Assembly: GCA_036785375.1 (NCBI GenBank)
Contig: JAWMAR010000359.1
Location: 1,240,001-1,304,000 of the forward strand
Origin: Leucoraja ocellata
Lineage: Eukaryota
Length of the DNA: 64,000 nt
Reading direction: 5' to 3'
Below the pieces are notes generated by a model that did not search any database, was not told where the DNA came from, and saw only the letters and a list, made by a program, of their open reading frames with translations. Shown here piece after piece: positions 1 to 62,915 of this stretch (its first letter is position 1; the number at the start of each line of letters is the position of its first letter). The translations under genes were made by a program, and so were the position numbers.

Positions 1-85
1 GCCTTGGTCACCCTGGAGCCATGTCTCCGTGATCCCAACTATATCATAGTCATTAATAGCTATCTGCACATTCAACTCATCCACC
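1..85 (-). mobile_element. CR1 LINE fragment (APE endonuclease region), continues left of the window
   Basis: Reverse complement is identical over 85 nt to 29680-29764 of the CR1 ORF2 in this window (VDELNVQIAINDYDIVGITETWLQGDQG). Confidence 0.9.
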
Positions 86-5391: not shown

Positions 5392-7009
5392 CAGTGGCTT
5401 GCAAAAGTTTTCATACCCCTTGAAGTTTTCCACATATTGTCACGTTACAACCACAAACGTAAATGTATTTTATTGGGATTTTATGTGATAGAACAACACA
5501 AAGTGGCGCATAATTGTGAAGTGGAAGGAAAATGATACATGGTTTTCAAATCTTTTTACAAATAAAAATCTGAAAAGTGTGGCGAGCAAAAGTATTCAGC
5601 CCCCCTGAGTCAATACTTTGTAGAACCACCTTTCGCTGCAATTACAGCTGCAAGTCTTTTTGGGGTATGTCTCTACCAGCTTTGCACATCGAGAGACTGA
5701 AATTTTTGCCCATTCTTCTTTGTAAAATAGCTCAAGCTCAGTCAGATTGGATGGAGAGCGTCTGTGAACAGCATTTCTCAAGTCTTGCCAGAGATTCTCA
5801 ATTGGATTTTGGTCTTTACTTTGACTGGGCCATTCTAACACATGAATATGCTTTGATCTAAACCATTCAATTGTAGCTCAGGCTGTATGTTTAGGGTCGT
5901 TGTCCTGCTGGAAGGTGAACCTCCGCCCCAGTCTCAAGTCTTTTGCAGACTGTAACAGGTTTTCTTCCAAGATTGCCCTGTATTTGGCTCCATCCATCTT
6001 CCCATCAACTCTGACCAGCTTCCCTGTCCCTGCTGAAGAAAAGCATCATCACAGCATGATGCTGCAACCACCATGTTTCACAGTGGGGATGGTGTGTTCA
6101 GGGTGATGTGCAGTGTTAGTTTTCTGCCACACATAGCGTTTTGCATTTAGGCCAAAAACTTCAATTTTGGTCTCATCTGACCAGAGCACCTTCCTCCACA
6201 TGTTTGCCGGGTCCCCCACATGGCTTGTGGCAAACTGCAAACGGGACTTCTTATGGCTTTTTTTCAACAATGGCTTTCTTCTTGCCACTCTTCCATAAAG
6301 GCCCGATTTGTGGCATGCACGACTTATAGTTGTCCTGTGGACAGATTCTCCCACCTGAGCTGTGGATCTCTGCAGCTCCTCCAGAGTTACCATGGGCCTC
6401 TTGGCTGCTTCTCTGATCAATGCTCTTCTTGCCCGGCCTGTCAGTTTAGGTGGACGGCCATGTCTTGGTAGGTTTGCAGTTGTGCCATACGCTTTCCATT
6501 TTCGGATGATGGATTGAACAGTGCTCCGTGAGATATTCAAAGCTTGAGATATTTTTTTATAACCTAACCCTGCTTTAAACTTCTCCACAACTTTATCCCT
6601 GACCTGTCTGGTGTGTTCCTTGGGCTTCATGATGCTGTTTGTTCATTAATGTTCTCTAACAAACCTCTGAGGCCTTCACAGAACAGCTGTATTTATACTG
6701 AGATTAGATTACACACAAGTGGACTCTATTTACTAATTAGGTGACTTCTGAAGGCAATTGATTGCACTGGATTTTATTTAGGGGTATCAGAGTAAAGGGG
6801 GCTGAATACTTTTGCACGCCACACTTTTCAGTTTTTTATTTGTAAAAAATTCTGAAAACCATGTATCATTTTCCTTCCACTTCACAATTATGCGCCACTT
6901 TGTGTTGGTCTATCACATAAAATCCCAATAAAATACATTTACGTTTGTGGTTGTAATGTGACAAAATGTTGAAAAGTTCAAGGGGTATGAATACTTTTGC
7001 AAGCCACTC
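5392..7009 (-). mobile_element. Full-length Tc1 transposon (about 1.6 kb, about 210-bp IR/DR terminal inverted repeats, TA flanks)
   Basis: TA|CAGTGGCTTGCAAAAG at 5390-5407 and CTTTTGCAAGCCACTC|TA at 6994-7011. Long inverted repeats 5392-5605 and 6795-7009. Confidence 0.95.
5610..6630 (-). pseudogene. Tc1 DD34E transposase pseudogene
   Basis: Paired-like HTH (GYKKISQALNISRSTVQSIIRKW), GRPPK, WSDETK, HGGCSIML then two in-frame TGA stops, FQQDNDPKH, a further stop, WPSQS..NPIENLW and a late frameshift. Confidence 0.92.
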
Positions 7010-20819: not shown

Positions 20820-22676
20820 TCGTAAGAGACAGGAGAAGAATTAGGCCATTCGGCCCATCTACACCATTCAATCATGGCTGGTCTATCTCTGCTTTCTAAC
20901 CCCATTCTCCTGCATTCTCCCCATAACCTCTGACACCTGTATTAATCAGGAATCTATCTATCTCGACCTTAAATATATTCATTGGCTTGGCCTCCATAGC
21001 CTTCTGTGGCAAAGAATTCCACAGATTCACCAGCCTCTGACTAATGAAATTCCTCCTCATTTCCTTCCTAAAAGAACGTCCTTTGAATTTGAGGCTATGA
21101 CCTCTGGTCGTAGACTCTCCCAATAGTGGAAACATCCTCTCCACATCCACTCTTTCCAAGCCTTTCACTATTCTGTACGTTTCAATGAGGTCCCCCCTCA
21201 TTGTTCTAAACTCCAGCAAGTACAAGCACAGTGCCATTAAACGCTCATCATAGGTTAACCTGCTCATTCCTGGGATCATTCTTATAGAAACATAGAAAAT
21301 AGGTGCAGGAGTAGGCCATTCGGCCCTTCGAGCCTGAACCGCCATTCAATATGATCATGACTGATCATCCAACTCAGTGTCCTGTACCTGCCTTCTCTCC
21401 ATACCCCCTGATCCCCTTAGCCACAAGGGCCACATCTAACTTCCTCTTAAATATAGCCAATGAACTGGCCTGAACTACCTTTTGTGGCAGAGAATTCCAG
21501 AGATTCACCACTCTCTGTGTGAAAAATGTTTTTCTCATCTCGGTCCTATAAGACTTCCCTCTGTGACCCCTTGTTCTGGACTTCCCCAACATCGGGAACA
21601 ATCTTCCTGCAATCTTCCTGCAACTAGCCCTTAAGAATTTTGTAAGTTTCTATAAGATCCCCCCTCAATCTTCTAAATTCTAGCGAGTTCAAGCCGAGTC
21701 TATCCAGTCTTTCTTCATATGAAAGTCCTGACATCCCAGGACATAAACCTCCTCTGGACCCTCTCCAGAGCCAGCACATTTTCTTCAGATATGGTGCCCA
21801 AAATTGCTCTCAATATTCCAAATGTGGCCTGACCAGCACCTTATAGAGCCTCAGCATTACATCCCTGTTTTTGTATACAAGCCTTCTCAAAATAAATGCT
21901 AGCATTGAATTTGCTTTCTTTACTTCCAATTCGACTTGCAGATTATCTTTCGGGGAATTCTGTACCAGCACTCCCAAGTCCCTTCGCACCTCCGAATTCT
22001 GGATTCTCTCCCCATTTAGAAAATAATCTAATTCCTATATTCCTACTACCAAAATGTATGACTCCACAGTTTCATACACTATATTCCATCTGCCACTTCT
22101 CTGCCCACTTTCCCACCTATCCAAATCCCTCTGCAGAGTCCCTGCTTTTTCTACTCAACATGCCCCCCACCTATTTTTGTATCATCTGCAAACTTGGCCA
22201 CAAAGCATTCAATCCCCTCACCAAAATCTTTAATATACAATGTGAAGAGCAGCGGTCCCAGCACTGAGCCCTGCATAACTTCGCTAGTCACTGGCAGCCA
22301 ACCCCTTTATTGCCACTCTTTGCCTTCTGCCATCCAGCCAAAGTGATATCCATGCTAGTATCTGCCCATTGATACCATGGGCTCTCATGTTCCTTAGCAG
22401 CCTCCTGTGTGGCACCTTATCGAAGGCTTTCTGAAAATCTAGGTAAACAACATCTACTGCCTCTCTTTTACCTATCCTGCTACTTCGGCCTATTTTATCA
22501 TGAATTTCTCAGTACTCCGTAACCTCATCCTTTATAATGGATTCTAAAATCTTACCAACAACCAGTCAGACTAACTGGCCTATAGTTCCCCTATTCTGCT
22601 TTGCGCCCTTCTTGTGCAGTGGAGTAATATTGGCAATTTTCCAATCAACTGGAATCACTCCTGAGTCTAGTGATTT
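20820..22676 (-). mobile_element. CR1 LINE (decayed RT to 3' end) interrupted by a second CR1 at 21284-21741
   Basis: ORF remnants LEFRTMRGDLIETYRIVKGL, NFISQRLVNLWNSLP. The upstream part carries QKAFDKVP- and KFADD-type remnants. Confidence 0.85.
21284..21741 (-). mobile_element. Young CR1 3' fragment nested in an older CR1
   Basis: Own tail (atagaaacatagaaaataggtgc on the plus strand). Near-identical to 58655-59120 in opposite orientation. Confidence 0.85.
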
Positions 22677-22689
22677 TACCAGAGTATTT

Positions 22690-23735
22690 CAGTAAAGCAT
22701 TCAACAAGGTTCCTCATAGTTGGCTGCTCTGGAAGGTTAGATCCCATGGGATCCAAGGAGAGCTAGCTGGGTAGAAAATTGGCTTCATGGAAGAAAGCAG
22801 ACGGTGATGTTGGAAGATTGCTTTTCGGATTGGAGGCCTGTGACTAGTGGTGTGCCTCAGAGTTCGGTTCTGGGCCCGTTACTGTTTGTCATTTATTTCA
22901 ATTATTTGGATACAAGCCAAGATTAGCAAGTTTGCTGATGATACAAAAGTTAGTGGTTTTGCGGATAGTGAAGATGGTTGTGAAAAATTGCAACATGATC
23001 TTGATCAATTGGCCAAGTGGGTTGAGGAATGGTTGATGGAAGTTAATGCAGAAAAAAGTGAGTTGTTGCATTTTGGGATGTCTAACATGGGCAGGACCTG
23101 CACAGTGAATGGTAGGGCTCTGGGTAGTGTTGTGGATCAGAGGGATCTAGGAGTGCAGGTGCATAGCTCCCTGAAGGTGGAGTGGCATGTAAATTGGGTG
23201 GTCAAAAAGGCTTTTAGCACATTGGCCTTCATCAGTCAGAGTATTGGGTATAAAAATTGGGAGGCCTTGTTGCAGTTGTATAAGATGTTGATGAGGCCAC
23301 AATTAGAGTATTGTGTTCAGTTCTGGGCACCGTGTTATAGGAAAGGTGCTGTCAAGCTGGAAAAGGTACAGAGAAGATTTACAAGGATGTTGCCCGGACT
23401 AGCAGGTCTGAGCAAAAGTCAGAGGTTGAGTGAGCTGGGACTCTATTCGGAGTGCAGGAGGATGAGGGGCGATCTTATAGAGGTGTAGAGAGGATTTATT
23501 CAGGTAGATGCACAAGAGTCTTTTGCCTAGAGTAGGTGAATCGAGGATCATGGGACATAGGTTTAAGGTCAAGGGGAAAAGATTTAATCTGAATCTTCTA
23601 GATAGGCACATGGGCAGGACAGGTTTGGAGGGATATGGACTGAATGCTGGCAGGTGGGACTAGTGTAGTTGGGGCCGTTGTTGGCCGGTGTGGGCATGTC
23701 GGTCCCAAGGGCCTGTTTCCACACTGTATGACCTT
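22690..23735 (+). mobile_element. CR1 LINE RT to 3' end
   Basis: [41 protein letters not shown]1-type tail gggcctgtttccacactgtatgac. Confidence 0.85.
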
Positions 23736-23943
23736 ATGATTGTTGAAATATCACTATCTCTGCCTCCACAATCTCTAAAGCCACCTCTTTCAGGACCCCA
23801 GGGTGCAGTCCATCTGGTCTGCATATGGAGAGTGAATATGGAGGACGACAGCGAGAGCAATGTTCTAATCTGTCAATTACAGGCTGTCTTAATTCACTCA
23901 GAAATATGATTACTCCATTGTTCAACATGCATTTGGAGTCTTA

Positions 23944-26370: not shown

Positions 26371-27139
26371 ATGACATCAACGTGCAAATTTCATGTGTTA
26401 AAACATGAAAACAAATCATGCAAAAAGAGATCATACACAATTTATTTTGTTAATCAAAGAAAAATAAAGGTAGATGGGGTTATTACAAATCAGGTGTGAT
26501 CAAAATGAATGGGGGAGAAGCTCAAAGAACAAAAGTATGTTCATGGCTACTTCATATGTGCTGGAGATAAGACAATCTGCAAAAAGTTTTTGCTTTTTTC
26601 GCAAGTTTGGCCTCCTCCTGCACCTATTTTCTATGTTTCTATTTCCACCTCCTCTGAATAGATTGACAATTATTTCATCCTTAACCTTAAGGTGTCCCAG
26701 GTCCGAAAGAGATTGTCTCTAACTCTTAACATTTGAAACAATCCTTGCAAACATCTTCTTTTGTGTTCAGCTACATTCTTCATGGGATAACTTTTGAGGT
26801 CTATCACCTCTTGTCAGAACTGGCAACAAGAGTAAGCAAGCTAGTTTAAAATTGCAAAGATGGGAGATGTATATGCAGAACGCGGGGGATCTCTTTGATG
26901 ATGGATGAGGCCAAATTGGTTAAACGTAGCAATTGGAACAGAGAATGCTTCTTTGTCTGTGTTATGTGCTGCTGAATATAGGTCTGCAGGAAATGCCTTA
27001 CCTAATGATGTCCCTTGTGCAACAGCATTACTTCCCTAGCCACGTTCCATGGGCTTGGCGGTCGGTACTCTTTTGTGAAATTAAGATATGAACCTTTAAT
27101 TTATATTATTTTATTTTATATTAGCCCAAGGTTATTTAT

Positions 27140-28090
27140 ATTAACCTTATATTAATGATTTGGATGAGGGGATTGAAGGTTTTGTGGCCAAATTTGCAAA
27201 TTATATGAAAATAGGTGGAAGGGCAGGTAGTGTAGAGAAAGCAGGGATTCTGCAGAAGGACTTGGATAGGTTGGAAGAGTGGGCAGATGGAATATTGTGC
27301 AGTAAAGTGTGGAGTCATGCACTTTGGTAGTAGGAATAAAGGTGTAGACTATGGTCCAAATGGGGAGAGAATGCAGAAATCGGAGGTGCAAAGGCACTTG
27401 GGGGGAATGTTGGTGCAGGATTCCTAAAAAGTTAATCTGCCAGTCGTATCGGTAGTAAAGAAAGCAAACTCAATGCTAGAATTTATTTCAAGAGGACTTG
27501 TATACAAAAACAGTGATGTAATGGTGATGCTCTATAAAGAACTTTGTGAGCAATTTTGGGCACCATATCTGAGGAAGAATGTGCTGGCTCTGGAGAGGGT
27601 CCAGAGGAGGTTTGCAAGAATGATCCCAGCAATAAGTGGGTTAGCCTTTGATGAGCGTTTGTCGGCACTGGGCCTCTACTCACTGGAGTTTAGAAAAATG
27701 AGGGGGGACCTCATTGAAACATACAGAATAGTGAAAGGTTTGGATAGAGTGAATGTTTCCACCAGTGGGAAAATCTAGGACTAGAGGTCATAGCCTCAGA
27801 ATTAAAGGACGTTCTTTTACGAAGGAGATGAGGAGAAATTTCTTTAGTCAAAGGGTGGTGAATCTGTGGAATTCCTAGCCACAGAAGGCTATGGAGGACC
27901 AGTCAGTTGATATATTTAAGGACGAGAGATAGATTTTTGATTAGTATAGGTGCCAGAGGTTATGGGGAGAATGCAGGAGAATGGAGTTAGGGGGGAGAGA
28001 TAGATCAGCCATGAATGAATGGCGGAGTTGACTTGATGGGCCGAATGGCCTAACTCTACTCCTATCACTTATGACATGACCTTATGAACT
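27140..28090 (+). mobile_element. CR1 LINE RT to 3' end
   Basis: QFWAPYLRKNVLALERVQRRFARMIP, LGLYSLEFRKMRGDLIETYRI, 3' UTR and tatga-type tail. Confidence 0.85.
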
Positions 28091-28279: not shown

Positions 28280-31200
28280 AGGAGAGAAGTGAGTCAGAGG
28301 GGTGAAAACAGTTGGAAACTGAGGAATTTGCTTTGTAAATTGGTAAATCAGGCAATTTATCAGTCAATTTAAGCAGGACAGCTCTTAGCGAGCGGCAGTG
28401 AGTGAAGTGCCCTGTGAGAAAAGTGTGAGTCTTTGGCGAGGAGGCTGAGGAGAGGAGACCATGCAATACGCTTGAGAGGTAGAGACAAAAGAAGGAGATG
28501 TCAGGCAAGCTGATTCAGTGCGATGCTTGCAGTATGTGGGAGGTCAAGGACACCGCTAATGCCTCTGGCTGCTACAAATGCGAAAAGTGCATCCTGAAGA
28601 GCTCCTGAAGGGCCGTGTTGGGGAACTGGAGAAGCAAGTGGACGACCTCCGGTTCGTACGAGAAACGGAGTCGTTCCTCGACAAGTCCTACAGTACGATT
28701 GTTACACCTAAGGTACTGGAAGAGAGAAGGTGGGAGACAGTGAGAAAGGGAGGGAAGCATGGAATGCCAATGTCCCCAGGTGGTGTACCTCTTGTAAACA
28801 GGTTAATCCGCTTAGAAGCTGTTTGGACAGAAGATGTGAGCGGCGGACTGGCTTGCGATGCGAATAGGGCTGTTGAGCCAAAACCAAAAAGGCCTAAGGC
28901 AGGCAAGGCCATTGTAGTGGGAGACTCCATCGTGAGAGGTACGGACAGGGATTTCTGCGGCAACAGACGGGATGCGAGGATGGTGTGCTGCCTTCCCGGT
29001 GCCAGGATCCAGGATGTCACGGACAGAGTGCAGAAAATCCTCAAGGGCGAAGGTGAACATCCGGAAGTGGTATTGCATGTCGGCACAAATGATGTCGGAA
29101 AAAAGGGGGTGAATATTCTGCAGCGTGACTTTAGAGAGCTCGGAAAAATGTTGAAAAGCAGGACCTCCAGGGTTGTTATCTCCGGTTTGCTTCCAGTTCC
29201 CCGTGCTGGCGAGAGCAGGAACAGGGAGATACGGGACCTGAACGTGTGGCTGAGGAACTGGTGCACGGGGCAGGGATTTATATTCTTAGATCACTGGGAT
29301 CTGTTTTGGGGTAAGGGGGAACTGTACAAAAGGGACGGATTGCATCTTAACAGGTGTGGGACCAGCATTCTGGCAGGCAGGTTTGCCACTGCTACACGGG
29401 TGGCTTTAAACTGAATAAGGGGGGTGGGGTGTTGAATGGGATAGTGGAGGATGGAGTTAAAGGGAAAGGGTTTCTTAAATGTGTGAGCGTAGAGACCGAG
29501 GGGTGTAAAATGAGGGTAGAAGAAATAGGTAGCAAGGTGAAAAGTAAAAGTGGCAGGCAGACAAAACCAGGGCAAAAATCAAAAAGGGCCACTTTTCAAC
29601 ATAATTGTATAAGGGGTAAGAGTGTTGTAAAAACAAGCCTGAAGGCTTTGTGTCTCAATGCAAGGAGCATTCGTAATAAGGTGGATGAGTTGAATGTGCA
29701 GATAGCTATTAATGACTATGATATAGTTGGGATCACGGAGACATGGCTCCAGGGTGACCAAGGCTGGGAGCTGAACATCCAGGGATATTCAATATTCAGG
29801 AGGGATAGACAGAAAGGAAAAGGAGGTGGGGTAGCGTTACTGATTATAGAGGGGATTAATGCGATGGAAAGGAAGGACATTAGTTTGGAGGATGTGGAAT
29901 CGGTATGGGTAGAGCTGCGAAACACTAAGGGGCAGAAAACGCTGGTGGGTGTTGTGTACAAGCCACCTAACAGTAGTAGTGAAGTTGGAGATGGTATCAA
30001 ACAGGAAATTAGAAATGCGTGCAACAAAGGCAAAACGGTTATAATGGGTGATTTCAATCTACATATAGATTGGGTGAATCAAATTGGCAGGGGTGCTGAG
30101 GAAGAGGATTTCTTGGAATGTATGCGGGATAGTTATCTAAATCAACATATAGAGGAACCAACGAGAAAGCAGGCTATTTTAGACTGGGTATTGAGTAATG
30201 AGGAAGGGTTAGTTAGCAATCTTGTTGTACGTGCCCCCTTGGGCAAGAGTGACCATAATATGGTTGAGTTCTTCATTAGGATGGAGAGTGACATTGTTAA
30301 TTCAGAAACAATGGTTCTGAACTTAAAGAAAGGTAACTTTGAGGGTATGAGACGTGAATTGGCCAGGATTGACTGGCAATTAATTCTAAAAGGGTTGACG
30401 GTGGATATGCAATGGAAGACATTTAAAGACTGCATGGATGAACTACAAAAATTGTTCATACCAGTTTGGCAAAAGAATAAATCAGGGAAGGTAGTACATC
30501 CATGGATAACAAGGGAATTCAGGGATAGTATCAAAGCGAAGGATGATGTGTACAAATTAGCCAGAAAAAGCAGCATACCGGAGGACTGGGAGAAATTCAA
30601 AGACCAGCAGAGGAGGACAAAGGGCTTAATTAGGAAAGGGAAAATAGATTATGAAAGAAAACTGGCAGGGAACATAAAAACTGACTGCAAAAGTTTTTAT
30701 AGATATGTGAAAAGAAAGAGATTAGTTAAAACAAATGTAGGTCCCTTGCAGTCAGAAACAGGTGAGTTGATCATGGGGAACAAGGATATGGCGGACCAAT
30801 TGAATAACTACGTTGGTTCCGTCTTCACTAAGGAAGACATAAATAATTTGCCGGAAATAGCAGGGGACCGCGGGTCAAAGGAGTTGGAGGAATTGAGTGA
30901 AATCCAGGTTAGCCGGGAAGTGGTGTTGGGTAAATTGAATGGATTAAAGGCCGATAAATCCCCAGGGCCAGATAGGCTGCATCCCAGAGTACTTAAGGAA
31001 GTAGCTCCAGAAATAGTGGATGCATTAGTAATAATCTTTCAAAACTCTTTAGATTCTGGAGTAGTTCCTGAAGATTGGCGGGTAGCAAATGTAACCCCAC
31101 TTTTTAAGAAGGGAGGGAGAGAGAAAATGGGGAATTACAGACCAGTTAGTCTAACATCGGTAGTGGGGAAACTGCTAGAGTCAGTTATTAAAGATGGGAT

Positions 31201-31899
31201 AGCAGCACATTTGGAAAGTGGTGAAATCATTGGACAAAGTCAGCATGGATTTACGAAAGGTAAATCATGTCTGACAAATCTTATAGACTTTTTCGAGGAT
31301 GTAACTAGTAGCGTGGATAGGGGAGAACCAGTGGATGTGGTGTATCTGGACTTCCAGAAGGCTTTCGACAAGGTCCCACATAAGAGATTGGTATACAAAC
31401 TTAAAGCACAAGGCATTGGGGGTTCAGTATTGATGTGGATAGAGAACTGGCTGGCAAACAGGAAGCAAAGAGTAGGAGTAAACGGGTCCTTTTCACAATG
31501 GCAGGCAGTGACTAGTGGGGTACCGCAAGGCTCAGTGCTGGGACCCCAGCTATTTACAATATATATTAATGATCTGGATGAGGGAATTGAAGGCAATATC
31601 TCCAAGTTTGCGGATGACACTAAGCTGGGGGGCAGTGTTAGCTGTGAGGAGGATGCTAGGAGACTGCAAGGTGACTTGGATAGGCTTGGTGAGTGGGCAA
31701 ATGTTTGGCAGATGCAGTATAATGTGGATAAATGTGAGGTTATCCATTTTGGTGGCAAAAACGGGAAAGCAGACTATTATCTAAATGGTGGCCGATTGGG
31801 AAAGGGGGAGATGCAGCGAGACCTGGGTGTCATGGTACACCAGTCATTGAAGGTAGGCATGCAGGTGCAGCAGGCAGTAAAGAAAGCGAATGGTATGTT
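28280..31899 (+). mobile_element. Young CR1 LINE, 5'-intact and 3'-truncated
   Basis: 5' UTR, ORF1 (zinc finger, coiled coil, SGNH esterase) and uninterrupted APE-RT ORF2 that stops abruptly at KKANGML, where an oppositely oriented CR1 tail (31900-31990) begins. Confidence 0.93.
28498..29414 (+). pseudogene. CR1 ORF1 (CxxC..CxxC finger, coiled coil, SGNH/GDSL esterase), one frameshift near 28595
   Basis: ATG 28498 gives MSGKLIQCDACSMW..CYKCEKC. The reading continues in the 28578-29414 frame: LEKQVDDLR, VVGDSIVRG, LPGA, LHVGTND, DGLHLN. Confidence 0.88.
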
Positions 31900-31903
31900 A
31901 TAA
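29405..31903 (+). CDS. CR1 ORF2 APE endonuclease plus reverse transcriptase, C-terminally truncated
   Basis: LNARSIRNK, GITETW, GGGVAL, MGDFN, ILDWV, SDH (APE). [49 protein letters not shown] (RT). No internal stops. Confidence 0.92.
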   Translation, partial: FKLNKGGGVLNGIVEDGVKGKGFLKCVSVETEGCKMRVEEIGSKVKSKSGRQTKPGQKSKRATFQHNCIRGKSVVKTSLKALCLNARSIRNKVDELNVQIAINDYDIVGITETWLQGDQGWELNIQGYSIFRRDRQKGKGGGVALLIIEGINAMERKDISLEDVESVWVELRNTKGQKTLVGVVYKPPNSSSEVGDGIKQEIRNACNKGKTVIMGDFNLHIDWVNQIGRGAEEEDFLECMRDSYLNQHIEEPTRKQAILDWVLSNEEGLVSNLVVRAPLGKSDHNMVEFFIRMESDIVNSETMVLNLKKGNFEGMRRELARIDWQLILKGLTVDMQWKTFKDCMDELQKLFIPVWQKNKSGKVVHPWITREFRDSIKAKDDVYKLARKSSIPEDWEKFKDQQRRTKGLIRKGKIDYERKLAGNIKTDCKSFYRYVKRKRLVKTNVGPLQSETGELIMGNKDMADQLNNYVGSVFTKEDINNLPEIAGDRGSKELEELSEIQVSREVVLGKLNGLKADKSPGPDRLHPRVLKEVAPEIVDALVIIFQNSLDSGVVPEDWRVANVTPLFKKGGREKMGNYRPVSLTSVVGKLLESVIKDGIAAHLESGEIIGQSQHGFTKGKSCLTNLIDFFEDVTSSVDRGEPVDVVYLDFQKAFDKVPHKRLVYKLKAQGIGGSVLMWIENWLANRKQRVGVNGSFSQWQAVTSGVPQGSVLGPQLFTIYINDLDEGIEGNISKFADDTKLGGSVSCEEDARRLQGDLDRLGEWANVWQMQYNVDKCEVIHFGGKNGKADYYLNGGRLGKGEMQRDLGVMVHQSLKVGMQVQQAVKKANGML

Positions 31904-35167: not shown

Positions 35168-36075
35168 ATAACCATATATAACCATATAACAATTACAGCA
35201 CGGAAACAGGCCATCTCGACCCTTCTAGTCCGTGCCGAACACGTATTCTCCCCTAGTCCCATATACCTGCGCTCAGACCATAACCCTCCATTCCTTTCCC
35301 GTCCATATAACTATCCAATTTATTTTTAAATGATAAAAACGAACCTGCCTCCACCACCTTCACTGGAAGCTCATTCCACACAGCCACCACTCTCTGAGTA
35401 AAGAAGTTCCCCCTCATGTTACCCCTAAACTTCTGTCCCTTAATTCTCAAGTCATGTCCCCTTGTTTGAATCTTCCGATTCAGATTCAATTTCAGATTCA
35501 ATTTAATTGTCATTGTCAGTGTACAGTACAGAGACAACGAAATGCATTCCTTACTCTCAGTGGGAAAAGCTTATCCACGTCAACTCTGTCTATCCCTCTC
35601 ATCATTTTAAAGACCTCTATCAAGTCCCCCCTTAACCTTCTGCGCTCCAAAGAATAAAGCCCTAACTTGTTCAACCTTTCTCTGTAACTTAGTTGCTGAA
35701 ACCCAGGCAACATTCTAGTAAATCTCCTCTGTACTCTCTCTATTTTGTTGACATCCTTCCTATAATTAGGCGACCAAAATTGTACACCATACTCCAGAAT
35801 TGGCCTCACCAATGCCTTGTACAATTTTAACATTACATCCCAACTTCTATACTCAATGCTCTGATTTATATAGGCCAGCACACCAAAAGCTTTCTTTACC
35901 AAAAAAATCGACTTCATTATCCACAACCCCACCTATCTTAGTGTCATCTGCATACTTACTAATCCAATTTACCACACCATCATCCACATCTTTGATGTAC
36001 ATGACAAACAACCGTGGACCCAACACAGATCCCTGTGGCACCCCACTAGTCACTGGCCTCCAACCTGACAAACAA
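35168..36075 (-). mobile_element. CR1 RT to 3' end ((TATATGGT)n tail), with a short LINE-tail insertion at about 35478-35548 and an internal deletion
   Basis: [60 protein letters not shown]. Confidence 0.88.
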
Positions 36076-36999
36076 CCGGAAATTGGAACCATGTAATAGG
36101 AAGTACCCAGCAGTACACCTATTAGAGTAAAAATGACATTTAACCTAAACTGATAATGGATCAAATTTAAAAAATCCAAAATAAAAATAAATATATGAAT
36201 GCTTACTCCAGTTACTTTGGATTTCCAGACACAGCTTCGATCAGAGCAGTTTTGTGCTGCCTCCTGCAGTAGACGTGCAGAAGTACTGAAGGCAGCTTTC
36301 TTTCCTCGCGTATATTAAGTTATTTTGCCTTCCATTCACTTTTGGCTGCTACTGTATAGTTAATATTGCATTTTAAAACATTATCTTTCAGTTTCTGAGC
36401 TAACTTTCTGCTCATTGTGGTTGGTATGTTGGTTTTCCTTGAAATAAGATTACATCACTGTGAATGAATAAAGAGATGAAGGGAGAAACACGAACATAGT
36501 TTGAAAGGGCCCAAGATAAATTTCTATATCTCAAGCGTAAACCACATAATATTTCAAGTCTAAATGCATGCAAAGAAAATACAGTGTGGAATAAATAAAG
36601 AATCAATAGCACCTCATTTTCCATTGAATTTGTACTGTGCCATTCTAGGTGATTGGCATTCCACTGACATCAACATTCTGCAAGTCAAGCATTGCATGCT
36701 GGTTAAATACAGGTGTGTTTTTCCCTGACAGATCATAAATGCAAGCAAAAGCAATAAATCTGGAAATAGTTTCATTTCAAGTGTTGAATAATTGCCTTTG
36801 CAAATTTCCTGTGTGTTTTAACCCGCATCAATATCGAACCACTGTTAAATTCCACAAAGCCACTTCCTGAAGCACGCTAGTAATATTTTGTTCACCACAC
36901 TGCCCACAGTAATTGTACTGGAAATTCTCGGAACACGGTTGAGGAGGAACAAATGTTTAGTAACATTTTGCTCTCTGATTATCACAAATTCACATTCTG

Positions 37000-41039: not shown

Positions 41040-42537
41040 ATGCAAGTGCCATTATATTGCTGTACAAGAAGGGAGCAAAGCAGAAGAGTGCGAACTATAG
41101 CCTGACTTCAGTAGTTGGTAAGATTTTAGAATTCATTATAAAGGATACGTTTTCGAAGTGATGATAAAATAGGCCAGTCAGCATGGTTTTGTAAAGGGGA
41201 GATCTTGCCTGACGAATCTGGCTGGAATTCATTGACAAAGTAAATAGCAGGAAAGACAAAGAAGAGTCTGTGGATGTTGTTCATCTAGATTTTCTGAAGA
41301 TTTTCACATTTGACAAGGCGTCGAACGTGAGGCTGCTAAAGAAGATGAGAGCCCATGGTATCAAAGGGAAAATACTAGCATGGACCGCAGGTTGGCTAGA
41401 TGGCAGAAGGCAAAGAATAGCTATAATTGGGGCTTTTACTGGTTAGCTGCCAGTGACTAGCAGAGTTCCACAGGGGTCGGTGCTGGGGCCGCTACTCTTC
41501 ACGTTATACATGAATCATTTGGATGAGGAGACTAAAGGCTTTGTGGCCAAGTTTGCAGATGATATGAAGATAGGTGGAGTAGCAGGTTGTGTAGAAAAAG
41601 CAGGGACTCTGCAGAAGGACTTGGACATGTTGGAAGAGTGGGCAGATGGAATACAGTGCAGCCAAGGGTGGAGCCATGCATTTTGGTAGCAGGAGTAAAG
41701 GCGTAGGCTATTTTCTAAATGGGGAGAGAATTCAAAAATCGGAGGTGCAAAGGTATTTGGGAGTGCTGATGCAGGATCCCCAAAATGTTAATTAGCAAGT
41801 CGAATCGGTAAGGAAAGCAAACACAATTCCAGCAGTTATTTAAAGAGGACTAGAATACAAAAACAGGGATGTCATGCTGAGGCTTTATAAGGCACTGATC
41901 AGACTGCATTTGGAGTATTGTGAACAATTTCAAGGTTTCAAGGTCAAGGTGAGTTTATTGTCACATGTACCAATTAAGGTACAGTGACATTTTGGGCCCC
42001 AAATCTGAGGAAGGATGTGCTGGTGCTGGAGATGGTCCAGAGGTGATTTATGAGAATGATCCCAGCAATGAGTGGGTTAACATATGATGAACGTTTGACA
42101 GCACTGGGCCACCAACCGCTGGAGTTTAGAAGAATGAGGGGGGAACCTCATTGAAATGTACTGAATAGTGAAAGGCCTGGATAGAGTGGATGTGGAGAAG
42201 ATGTTTCCACTAGTGGGAGAGTCGAGGATGGGAGGTCATAGCCTCAAAATTAAAGGACTTTCCATTAGGAAGGATATGAGGAGGAATTTCTTTAGTCAGA
42301 GGGTGGTGAATCTGTGGAATTCATTGCCACAGAAGGTTATGGAGACCAAGTCAATCGATATTTTTAAACCAGAGATAGATAGATTCTTGATTAGTACGGG
42401 TGTCAGTGGTTATGGGAAAAAGGCAGGGGAAGATAGAGGGAAATGTAAGATAAGAGGGAAAGATAGATCAGGCCTGCTGGAATGGTCAGCCGTCTTGATG
42501 AACCGAATGGCCTAATTCTGCTCCTATACTTATGAAC
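41040..42537 (+). mobile_element. Decayed CR1 RT to 3' end
   Basis: [33 protein letters not shown] short foreign LINE tail is inserted at about 41928-41988. Confidence 0.85.
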
Positions 42538-46861: not shown

Positions 46862-47061
46862 NNNNNNNNNNNNNNNNNNNNNNNNNNNNNNNNNNNNNNN
46901 NNNNNNNNNNNNNNNNNNNNNNNNNNNNNNNNNNNNNNNNNNNNNNNNNNNNNNNNNNNNNNNNNNNNNNNNNNNNNNNNNNNNNNNNNNNNNNNNNNNN
47001 NNNNNNNNNNNNNNNNNNNNNNNNNNNNNNNNNNNNNNNNNNNNNNNNNNNNNNNNNNNNN
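46862..47061. other. Assembly gap
   Basis: Run of N. Confidence 1.
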
Positions 47062-47652
47062 AGTGTGAACTGTGAGGAGGATGTTATGAGGATGCAGGGT
47101 GACTTGGACAGGTCGGGTGAATGGGCAGATGCATGGCAGATGCTGTTTAAAGAGGATAAATGTGAGGTTATCCGCTTTGGTAGGAAAAACAGGAAGGCAG
47201 ATTATTATCTGAATGGTGTCAAGTTAGGAAAAGGGGAAGTATAACGAGATCCTGGGGTGCTTGTGCATCAAGTCACTGAAAGTAAGCATGCAAGTACAGC
47301 AGGCTGTGAAGAAAGCGAATGGCATGTTGGCCTTTATAACAAGAGGAGTTGAGTATAGGAGCAACGAGGTTCTTCTGCAGTCGTACAGGGCCCAAGTGAG
47401 ACCACACCTGGAGTATTGTGTGCAGTTTTGGCCTCCATGTTTGAGGAAGGACATTCTTACTATTGAAAGAGTGCAGCGTAGGTTCAAGAGGTTAATTCCC
47501 GGGATGGCGGGACTGTCATATGTTGAAAGAATGGAGTTATTGGGCTTGTATACACTGGAGTTTAGAAGGATGAGAGGAGATCTTATTGAAACTTAAGATT
47601 TTTAAGGGATTGGGCACGCTAGAGGCAGGAAACATGTTCCCAATGTTGGGGG
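47062..47652 (+). mobile_element. CR1 RT fragment
   Basis: [37 protein letters not shown]. Confidence 0.88.
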
Positions 47653-53326: not shown

Positions 53327-55360
53327 AGAAACATAGAAACATAGAAAATAGGCACAGGAGGCCATTCGGACCTTCGAGCCAGCACCGCCACTCATTGTGA
53401 TCATGTCTGATCATCTCCAATCAATAACCCGTGCCTGCCTTTTCCCCCATATCCCTCGATTCCACTAGCCCCTAGAGCTCTATCTAACTATCTCTTAAAT
53501 CTATCCAGTGACTTGTCCTCCACTGCCCTCTGTGGCAGGGAATTCCACAAATTCACAACTCTCTGGGTGAAAAAAAAATTCTCACCTCAGTCTTAAATGG
53601 CTTCCCCTTTATTCTAAGACTGTGGCCCCTAGTTCTGGACTTGCCCAACATTGGGAATATTTTACCTGCATCTAGCATGTCCAGTCCTTTTATAATGGTC
53701 AATTTTTCTATAAGATATCCCCTCATCCTTCTAAACTCCAGTGAATACAAGCCTAGTCTTTTCAATCTTTCCTCATATGACAGTCCCGCCATCCCAGGGA
53801 TCAATCTCGTGAACCTACGCTGCACTGCCTCAATCACAAGGATGTCCTTCCTCAAATTCGGAGACCAAAACTCGACACAATACTCCAGATGTGGTCTTAC
53901 CAGAGCCTTATACAACTGCAGAAGAACCTATTTACTCCTATACTGAAATTCTATTGTTATGACGGCCAACATTCCATTAGCTTTCTTCACTGCCTGCTGT
54001 ACCTGCACACCAACTTTCAGTGACTGGTGTACAAGGATGCTCAGGTCTCGCTGCACCTCCCCTTTGCCTAACATAACCCCATTGAGATAATAATATGCCC
54101 CCTTATTTTTGCCACCAAAGTGGATAACCTCACATTTATCTAAATTATACTGCATCTGCCACGCATCTGCCCACTCACTCAGCCTGTCCAGGTCACCCTG
54201 CAACCTCCTAACATCCTCTTTACAGTTCACACTGCCACCCAGCTTTGTGTCATCCGCGAACATGCTAGTGTTGCTCCTAATTCCCTCTTCCAAATCATTA
54301 ATATATATGGTAAACAGTTGCCGCCCAGTTTTCTACATTTAGAAAAAATTAGGCTTGTTTTTGGCTGATAAATCAGTCCAATTTTCCAAAATGTGGTCTC
54401 CTTTCATTGAATTTCTTCAACAACAGAATGGTTGAACACAAATTCCAAACCGTTGCTTGGGTTGGGTGAGCGGGTGTAGGGAAGGATAGTGGGACATATC
54501 TCTGCTTTTTTTCTCTCACTTTTGTCAGTACAGTTCAGGGTTTTTTTCTTCTTTCTTTTATTGTATCTTTCTTCTTCCTCTTCATTCTTTCCTTTTTACT
54601 TTTTTTCCGATTTATCATTTTGTAATGTGTTAAAACTGAAGCTGTACGAAAATTGTATGATTGTTATGTCAATTTCTTTCTTCTTGTGCAATTGCTTCTA
54701 GTAAAATAACCATTACAAAAAACAGTTGTGGCCCCAACACCGAGCCTTGCGGCACTCCACTCACCACTGCCTGCCATTCTGATAAGGACCCGTTCACTCC
54801 TACTCTTTGCTTCCAGTCTGCCACCCAATTTTCTATCCATGTCAAAACCCTACCCCCAATACCATGTGCTCCAATTTTAGTCACCAATCTCCCATGCGGG
54901 ACCTTATCAAAGGCTTTCTGAAAGTCTAGATACACAACATCTACTGGCTCCCCTTCATCCATTTTACTTGCCACATCCTCAAAAAACTTCCAGAAGATTA
55001 GTCAAGCATGATTTCCCTTTCATAAATCCATGTTGACTAAGACCAATCCTTTTACTGCTATCCAAAATGCCCCATTATTACCTCTTCAATAATTGACTCT
55101 TAATAATAACTAACAGCATCTTTCCCACCACTGAAGTAAGGCTAACTGGTCTGTAATTCCCCGTTTTCTCTCTCGCTCCTTTCTTGAAAGTCGGATAACA
55201 TTAGCTATCCTCCAATCCACAGGAACCGATCCTGAATTGAAAATAATCACCAATGCGTCCACTATTTCTAGAGCCACCTCCCTGAGGACCCTGGGATGCA
55301 GACCATCAGGCCGAGGAGATCATCCTTCAGTCCCATTAGCCTACCCAATACTATTTCTTG
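53327..55360 (-). mobile_element. CR1 RT to 3' end (about 1.6 kb), split by an L1-like insertion
   Basis: [30 protein letters not shown], then after the insertion FADDTKLGG, LEYCVEFWSP, and a (TTCTATGT)n tail. Confidence 0.9.
54321..54719 (+). mobile_element. L1/Tx1-clade LINE 3' end with a 9-bp TSD
   Basis: LHLEKIRL.....QFSKMWSPFIEFL resembles fish L1 ORF2 C-termini. T-rich UTR and A-rich end. AAACAGTTG duplicated at 54312-54320 and 54720-54728. Confidence 0.7.
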
Positions 55361-62439: not shown

Positions 62440-62915
62440 TGCACAAGATAAAATGTCATGGTTTTAAACGAAATGCATTAGCATGGATTGGAGATTGATT
62501 ATCACATGGAAGATAGATTTGGAATATATGCCTTTTCCAGGATGGAAGAATGTAGCAAGTCGGGTGCCCCAGGGATCAGTTATTGGCCAATGTTGTACAA
62601 CCTGGACGAGGAGGAGACAAAGTGTAAAGTGCCCTTGCTTACCTTTGACACAGAAATGTCAGCGGACATGTTGCAAAGAGGATATTTGGACTTTAGAACG
62701 GTATACATACAGATTAAGCGAGTGGGTGAAAAATTAGCAATAGAATTTAATCTGGGCAAGTGAGAGAGCAGTCAGAGGAATTTAAAGGCAGCCTCATTAT
62801 CTCAGTGCAGGAAGATTACAGATGAACAAAGTACAGGGCAATCTATGTGTTCTTGTACCTAAATGGCAAAAACATTAGCAGGCAGCTGCAACAAGTGGTT
62901 ACAAGGCACATTAAA
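62440..62915 (+). mobile_element. Very old CR1 RT fragment
   Basis: FPGWKNVASRVPQGSVIG and RLSEWVKN remnants. Confidence 0.55.

What the first reader, a model, noticed from the sequence alone, without database searches (positions are those of the whole stretch)
29403..29450. Candidate -1 ribosomal frameshift signal joining CR1 ORF1 and ORF2
Seen: ORF1 ends GCT TTA AAC TGA, placing the heptamer T TTA AAC (29405-29411) in the correct X XXY YYZ phase directly before the stop. The -1 frame (TTT AAA CTG AAT...) is the open ORF2 frame through APE and RT. After a 7-nt spacer comes GGGGGGTGGGGTGTTGAATGGGATAGTGGAGG. Established: UUUAAAC is the coronavirus slippery site, stimulators sit 5-9 nt downstream, and G-quadruplexes can stimulate -1 frameshifting. 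LINE ORF2s studied so far (L1, SART1) use reinitiation or translational coupling. Inference: this CR1 may make a retrovirus-style ORF1-ORF2 fusion. I recall a similar GCTTTAAACT plus G-run in avian CR1, which needs checking. An in-frame ATG at 29510 offers an alternative.
Basis: partly seen in the sequence, partly recalled or inferred. Interest (0 to 1): 0.7.

Follow-up and report, generated by a model that had tools for sequence, protein, structure and literature searches.

The report
Conserved slippery junction in CR1 LINEs
An abundant vertebrate jumping gene (a CR1 LINE) ends its first gene on a seven-letter slippery sequence plus a stop, and its second gene continues one base back, in some families with no usable start codon, so its copying enzyme is likely made when ribosomes slip back one base, as in retroviruses.

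Summary
Confirmed. T TTA AAC (29405-29411) is in phase directly before the ORF1 stop; the -1 frame runs open through APE and RT. Of 99 other-family copies anchored without the heptamer, 70 carry TTTAAACT there. Across five families and one outside record, the preceding residue (T/A/G/H), stop codon and linker (35-84 codons) change, while T TTA AAC and the -1 phase do not. Family C has no in-frame AUG until after the whole endonuclease, so the AUG at 29510 is not a general start. Published consensus rows from sharks to crocodilians show the same junction. Distant ORF1 proteins end in LN, GN or KN, the residues encoded by U UUA AAC, G GGA AAC and A AAA AAC (protein level only). The G-run 7-10 nt downstream is conserved, but no hairpin, four-tract quadruplex or long-range pairing is. 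Best reading: programmed -1 frameshift giving an ORF1-ORF2 fusion (0.8, untested at the bench). This copy is broken (ORF1 frameshifted, ORF2 3'-truncated). The scan found this junction before in at least 3 other genomes; my eight paper searches found no description for CR1, but older CR1 papers were unavailable.

The parts
28498..29414 (+). CR1 ORF1 (N-terminal Cys motif, SGNH esterase); broken in this copy by a 1-nt deletion near 28597
28917..29360 (+). SGNH/GDSL esterase domain (Lipase_GDSL_2, E 3e-12)
29405..29411 (+). Slippery heptamer T TTA AAC in X XXY YYZ phase
29412..29414 (+). ORF1 stop (TGA here; TAA or TAG in other families) directly after the heptamer
29419..29429 (+). G-run GGGGGGTGGGG, 7 nt after the heptamer (8-10 nt in other families); candidate stimulator
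29405..29656 (+). Open -1 frame linker (84 codons, FKLNKGGG...) before the APE NARS motif
29510..29512 (+). In-frame ATG (codon 36 of the -1 frame); not conserved between families
29672..30256 (+). APE endonuclease domain (Exo_endo_phos)
31112..31759 (+). Reverse transcriptase domain (RVT_1); ORF2 breaks off at 31903

Best explanation
This is the ORF1/ORF2 junction of an esterase-type CR1 LINE, where ORF1 ends on U UUA AAC plus a stop and ORF2 continues in the -1 frame, and it likely works as a programmed -1 ribosomal frameshift that would give an ORF1p-linker-APE-RT fusion protein. Shown: the layout, its conservation between families and lineages, the open linker of variable length, and the lack of a usable AUG in some families. 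Inferred: most ribosomes stop and release ORF1p; a minority slip with tRNA-Leu and tRNA-Asn from UUA AAC to UUU AAA and read on as ...L-N/K-L...; the adjacent stop and the G-run 7-10 nt downstream likely raise the rate. How the G-run acts (bound protein, weak or intermolecular quadruplex, or only Gly codons) is open. The copy in this window is a broken relic of a young family and cannot itself use the signal.
For: (1) Heptamer-independent anchor (DGLHLN codons, plus 5 loci): 70 of 99 non-A loci carry TTTAAACT 50-100 nt downstream; by family 40 of 47 (C), 22 of 27 (B), 3 of 6 (E). (2) Six representatives (five family majorities, one outside record L168): preceding codon ACT, GCT, GGT, GGT, GGT, CAT, all ending in T; Leu always TTA (3 of 42 Leu codons upstream are TTA); Asn always AAC; stop TAG, TGA or TAA; upstream only 4 of 19 invariant degenerate residues keep one codon and 3 of 31 variable residues keep the third base. 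(3) -1 frame open from FKL to NARS over 57, 84, 68, 69 and 35 codons (C, A, B, E, L168), while the other two frames have 4-8 stops in 60 codons in the four family majorities. (4) First in-frame Met at codon 267-269 in C (after the APE SDH motif; none in the 62 open codons upstream), 68 in B (NARS at 69), 44 in L168 (NARS at 36). (5) 18 of 23 hits for TTTAAACTRR in a published consensus table lie at this junction by my reading; a heptamer-independent look-up gave 7 rows, and 6 of the 6 with the junction in view carry it. (6) RNA reads of a related organism: no variant at 4% or more in 29405-29412, whereas 29404 reads T, G or A in most reads; no indel or joint listed. (7) 70 of 73 ORF1 proteins ending in Asn have L, G or K before it (background 20.5%); Gln precedes 9 of 10 GN ends and 0 of 58 LN ends, as G GGA AAC versus T TTA AAC would require. 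U_UUA_AAC, G_GGA_AAC and A_AAA_AAC are named among the most shift-prone heptamers (PMC5009743, passages).
Against: No frameshift, fusion peptide or ribosome footprint was measured. No downstream hairpin (z +0.56 and -0.81), no conserved four-tract quadruplex, no conserved long-range partner, so a classical stimulator is missing. Families A and E have in-frame AUGs upstream of APE (codons 36 and 12), D at 24, and the stork models have a Met about 11 residues before APE. Small or old sets are not clean: D majority (n=7) has a stop at codon 43, C3 (n=6) a stop at 44, C4 (n=6) loses the frame before NARS. The five own-genome families are related (75-91% identity in the ORF1 tail), so not independent. 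In the read data 30 of 96 places vary and other variant-free runs of 8 or more exist. The profile for searches was built from proteins I chose for ending in LN, which favours LN hits. 34 of 107 proteins do not end in Asn. GN/KN codons could not be checked in DNA.
Confidence: 0.8

Rival explanations
1. ORF2 is made by termination-reinitiation or non-AUG initiation, as reported for SART1 and L1; TTTAAACTRR and the G-run would be the reinitiation signal, and AUG 29510 the start in this family.
For: In-frame AUGs exist upstream of APE in A, D, E and stork models; SART1 uses an overlapping stop-start and the general LINE mechanism is called unclear (PMC3708506, passages); L1 ORF2 initiation is considered AUG-independent (PMC5009743, passage).
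Against: No AUG before the end of APE in family C, and none before the first APE strand in B or L168; no stop-start overlap (the AUG 4 nt after the stop in C is in a dead frame); reinitiation does not explain why the linker is open back to the heptamer in exactly the -1 phase over five lengths, nor why it is an in-phase X XXY YYZ.
Confidence: 0.13
2. The motif is kept for another reason (the esterase needs C-terminal Leu-Asn, or it is a DNA/RNA binding or processing site), and the -1 phase is inherited without use.
For: Leu-Asn ends 58 of 107 proteins; families share ancestry; TTTAAACTAR also occurs in the 5' region of two consensus rows (SquAca_CR1-18, -3).
Against: Protein need does not fix TTA, AAC or the T of the preceding codon; LN sits at varying distance from DGLHL (26, 27, 31, 32, 39) and is replaced by GN or KN; an unused linker would collect stops.
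Confidence: 0.05
3. ORF1 and ORF2 are joined at RNA level (splicing, editing or transcriptional slippage).
For: G homopolymers vary in length among genomic copies.
Against: The G-run lies after the stop, so slippage there cannot fuse the frames; in 4 RNA runs no indel or joint at 4% or more was listed across 29365-29460, and joints across 28900-30100 had at most 6 reads per run (2 rows not shown). A low-level event below these thresholds is not excluded.
Confidence: 0.02

Closest known systems
Vertebrate canonical CR1 LINEs with esterase ORF1 (CR1 subgroup 7, ORF1 type IVB; PMC4120745 passages; PMC13343379 section 15, passages, supplement rows)
   Same: SGNH esterase ORF1, APE and RT in ORF2; same junction letters in consensus rows labelled CR1
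   Different: Neither main text contains the word frameshift; no expression route for ORF2 is given
Dictyostelium TRE5-A and TRE3-A (APE-type non-LTR elements; PMC5911963, figure-legend passage)
   Same: Non-LTR element said to require a -1 frameshift for ORF2
   Different: Other clade and host; unrelated ORF1; I saw only the review's statement, not the primary data or the site
Viral -1 frameshift cassettes with U_UUA_AAC (IBV; PMC5009743 passages)
   Same: Same heptamer in phase, polymerase in the -1 frame
   Different: No predicted pseudoknot or hairpin; stop directly after the heptamer; G-run where the structure would be
PRRSV protein-stimulated frameshift (nsp1-beta plus PCBP on CCCANCUCC 11 nt 3' of the site)
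   Same: Short unstructured homopolymer-rich motif about 10 nt downstream of the shift site
   Different: G-rich, not C-rich; no trans factor identified here; analogy only
G-quadruplex-stimulated -1 frameshifting in reporters (PMC3919603 passages)
   Same: G-rich sequence downstream of UUUAAAC; optimum spacer 6-8 nt matches this family's 7 nt
   Different: Those constructs have four G3 tracts; here 1-3 tracts, and the usual spacer is 8-10 nt

Membership tests
Esterase-type CR1 LINE | ORF1 with SGNH esterase | tested here: met
   Lipase_GDSL_2 E 3e-12; best relatives from sharks, rays, turtles, lizards
Esterase-type CR1 LINE | ORF2 with APE then RT | tested here: met
   Exo_endo_phos and RVT_1
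Esterase-type CR1 LINE | RT phylogeny places it in the CR1 clade | not tested
   No RT tree with named references; assignment rests on domains and on likeness to rows labelled CR1
Esterase-type CR1 LINE | 3' end in short tandem repeat, no poly(A) (recalled feature) | tested here: met
   Sister copies L245-L247 end in TTCTATG repeats; this copy lacks its 3' end
Programmed -1 ribosomal frameshift | X XXY YYZ heptamer in phase with the upstream ORF | tested here: met
Programmed -1 ribosomal frameshift | Downstream ORF open in -1 from the heptamer and lacking its own conserved start | tested here: met
   exceptions in small or old sets (D, C3, C4)
Programmed -1 ribosomal frameshift | Nucleotide-level conservation beyond protein need | tested here: met
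Programmed -1 ribosomal frameshift | 3' stimulatory structure 5-9 nt downstream | tested here: not met
   No hairpin, no conserved long-range partner; a conserved G-run is there instead. Structure-free, protein-stimulated cases exist
Programmed -1 ribosomal frameshift | Measured heptamer-dependent shift and transframe product | not testable with these tools
   needs reporter, ribosome profiling or mass spectrometry
G-quadruplex-stimulated frameshift | Four G3 tracts with short loops, conserved | tested here: not met
   1-3 tracts of G3 or more in 45 nt; quadruplex predicted for C, D (two-tier) and B, not for A, E or L168

The most novel reading that the evidence does not exclude
Esterase-type CR1 LINEs across animals make their reverse transcriptase as a Gag-Pol-like ORF1-ORF2 fusion by -1 frameshifting; lineages have swapped among the three strongest X XXA AAC heptamers (U UUA AAC, G GGA AAC, A AAA AAC), and in vertebrates the trigger is a new kind of structure-free stimulator: adjacent stop plus a linear G-run about 10 nt downstream bound by a host protein or by ORF1p itself.
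Probability: 0.3. Interest if true: 0.88.

Novelty: new variant of a known kind. Interest (0 to 1): 0.7.

Why it matters
CR1 is the dominant retrotransposon of many vertebrates (abstract starts of PMC13343379 and PMC4316615), and how LINE ORF2 is translated is called unclear (PMC3708506). A -1 frameshift would mean that CR1 RT carries its own esterase ORF1p moiety in a fixed ratio, would correct ORF2 start annotations, would tell builders of CR1 assays not to separate or recode the ORFs, and offers a 40-nt cassette with which a structure-free stimulator can be tested in one reporter experiment.

Tried and rejected
Local fold of four stretches around the site: no stable structure. Long-range pairing of the G-run with the rest of 20 longer copies: best partners differ by copy or lie in flanks; a recurring upstream match at the CLPG codons in families B and C is protein-constrained and absent as a top hit in A. 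Canonical quadruplex: not conserved. DNA for other lineages: viral contigs gave nothing useful, genome contigs 7 bacterial esterases, metagenomes 8 loci of which one CR1 (L168) and one L2-like (L169). No taxon names for 10 distant proteins. Sequencing runs: no RNA holder listed in the index; raw reads of four added runs were laid instead, and they come from many copies, so they do not show that the element's own transcript is made. Pattern GCTTTAAACTRA genome-wide (4415 against 335) is circular and only 14 of the first 30 loci matched ORF1; not used as support. Family A count (30 of 30) is circular because the query held ALN. In one search the stop of family D was misplaced; the numbers used are. 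Supplement of PMC4316615: no junction seen, one file not searched. A Tc1-like stretch at 5600-7000 was not checked (one search failed). Not held: PMC1190309, PMC7528939 and one id recalled from memory. No structure or complex prediction was run.

Full report
Observation. ORF1 encodes an SGNH esterase; the -1 frame from TTT at 29405 encodes APE and RT. In the window alone the motif is no more frequent than chance. The element belongs to a young family: 1253 candidates, the 40 scored 99-100% identical. This copy is broken: a 1-nt deletion near 28597 against four sisters and 832 ORF2 codons against 1013. The host is likely a skate or ray (inferred from the nearest named proteins).

Conservation in the genome. 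To avoid circularity I anchored on the DGLHLN codons about 75 nt upstream (5944 matches against 3 for the control pattern). I examined 70 of those 5944 places, 26 new loci, 5 of the 30 loci chosen because they were CR1 by eye, and 30 family-A loci; 129 of 131 were anchored and unique. Of the 99 non-A loci, 70 have TTTAAACT 50-100 nt after the anchor; the others include copies that break off or carry point changes. Families: C 40 of 47, B 22 of 27, E 3 of 6; 18 loci stayed in groups under three, 7 of which I pooled as D.

Nucleotide constraint. In five family majorities and record L168 the last codons read ACT/GCT/GGT/GGT/GGT/CAT, TTA, AAC, then TAG, TGA or TAA. Upstream TTA is 3 of 42 Leu codons, 4 of 19 invariant degenerate residues keep one codon, and 3 of 31 variable residues keep the third base. 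The own-genome families are 75-91% alike in this tail and L168 54-58%, so the six are not independent draws.

Linker and start codons. The -1 frame is open from FKL to the APE motif NARS over 57 (C), 84 (A), 68 (B), 69 (E) and 35 (L168) codons; the other frames of the four majorities hold 4-8 stops in 60 codons. Subfamilies C1 and C2 differ by two whole codons; C3 joins a C-type 5' part to the A-type linker in frame (113 codons, one stop in a majority of 6). First Met: 267-269 in C, after the whole endonuclease, with none in the 62 open codons upstream; 68 in B; 44 in L168, after NARS at 36; 36 in A; 12 in E; 24 in D. Against: D has a stop at codon 43 and C4 loses the frame before NARS.

Other lineages. 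In Supplementary Table 2 of PMC13343379 (cells cut at 400 letters, rows seen only as hits) 18 of 23 hits for TTTAAACTRR lie at the junction by my reading, in rows whose labels I read as alligator, crocodile, bearded dragon, bullfrog, coelacanth, bowfin, halosaur, elephant shark, stingray, sawfish, catshark and dogfish; 14 of the 18 show a run of four or more G within 3-13 nt. These rows drop letters, so frames cannot be read. With DGLHL codon terms instead, 7 rows hit and all 6 with the junction in view carry the heptamer. Eight wood-stork gene models read FKLDSKGEG through to LYTNARS, with a Met about 11 residues before APE.

Distant proteins. Of the 150 best hits of a profile search, 111 have the DGxH motif and 107 end within 60 residues; 73 end in Asn, preceded by L 58, G 10, K 2, S 2, E 1 times; L, G or K precede 20.5% of internal Asn. 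L, G and K are the residues of TTA, GGA and AAA. The residue before LN can end in T in 58 of 60 cases against 44 of 60 one residue further up; Gln precedes 9 of 10 GN ends and no LN end. On a tree of the domain without its tail, SGN and SKN ends are sisters, one FLN sits among QGN ends, and one clade of 8 has KN at the same place with ORF1 running on 2-12 residues. The profile was built from proteins chosen for LN ends, kin share endings, taxa are unknown, and no DNA was found, so this is a lead. A look-up of earlier scan notes for it found none.

RNA. Four raw RNA runs of a related organism (2 studies) cover the junction. No variant at 4% or more is listed in 29405-29412, while 29404 reads T, G or A in most reads and 29413 often A; no indel or joint is listed. 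Thirty of 96 places vary and other quiet runs of 8 exist, so this is modest support; it mainly speaks against splicing or editing as the join.

Stimulator. No hairpin follows the site. The first run of four or more G starts 8-11 nt after the heptamer in all six representatives and is among the top 2% of G4Hunter windows of each junction region, but only 1-3 G3 tracts are present and no quadruplex is predicted for A, E or L168. No conserved long-range partner was found. Reporter work used four G3 tracts with best spacers of 6-8 nt (PMC3919603); PRRSV uses a protein-bound linear motif 11 nt downstream. The run also encodes Gly in the -1 frame, which may be part of why it is kept.

Literature. 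Eight searches listed no paper that describes a frameshift for CR1. I saw passages of PMC5009743 (first 300,000 characters held; CR1 not mentioned as a whole word), PMC3708506, PMC5911963, PMC5006619, PMC3919603, PMC8915115, PMC3905857, PMC4255032 and PMC4120745; passages, section 15 and supplement rows of PMC13343379; one supplement file of PMC4316615. TRE5-A and TRE3-A are said to need a -1 shift, so the mechanism is not new to non-LTR elements. Older CR1 papers were not held and may have proposed it. Eight earlier notes of this scan, in at least 3 other genomes, reach the same reading; they are not counted as support.

Verdict. A real, deeply conserved recoding-type junction; programmed -1 frameshift 0.8; quadruplex as the trigger unlikely; new variant of a known kind; interest 0.7.

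Noticed in passing
L169:452-1100 (metagenome record, L2-like element): Esterase ORF1 ends FNLV then TGA CCA GCA, and the same frame continues into the APE start (FALRNIRS...TECWL): a possible stop-readthrough junction instead of a frameshift; one copy only, with a later frame break.
   Followed up: no
window 29460-29656; loci L105, L107, L119, L136, L151, L184: The A-type linker module that holds ATG 29510 is joined in frame to a C-type 5' part in subfamily C3, and RNA reads show a further 5' part joining near 29500: modular recombination at the linker.
   Followed up: partly
L041 (own genome): Copy with an in-frame internal deletion that removes most of linker and APE but keeps the junction.
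   Followed up: no
window 1-84, 21900-23900, 27120-27480, 35900-36110, 41045-41820, 47060-47330, 53970-55320, 62530-62860: Further CR1/LINE ORF2 fragments on both strands; the one at 1-84 is identical to this family over 28 residues.
   Followed up: no
window 5600-7000: Looks like a decayed Tc1/mariner transposon on the minus strand (recalled likeness, not tested); holds a chance GCTTTAAACT at 6572.
   Followed up: no
proteins P0196, P0240, P0259, P0262 and kin: Several distant ORF1 proteins without terminal Asn end near FF or FL (QFFH, RFFR, FLQV, FLGRV), which could hide U UUU UUN sites; untested.
   Followed up: no
proteins P0003 and P0053: Shark-like CR1 ORF1 proteins filed under bacterial names in public sources, likely host contamination of assemblies.
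   Followed up: no
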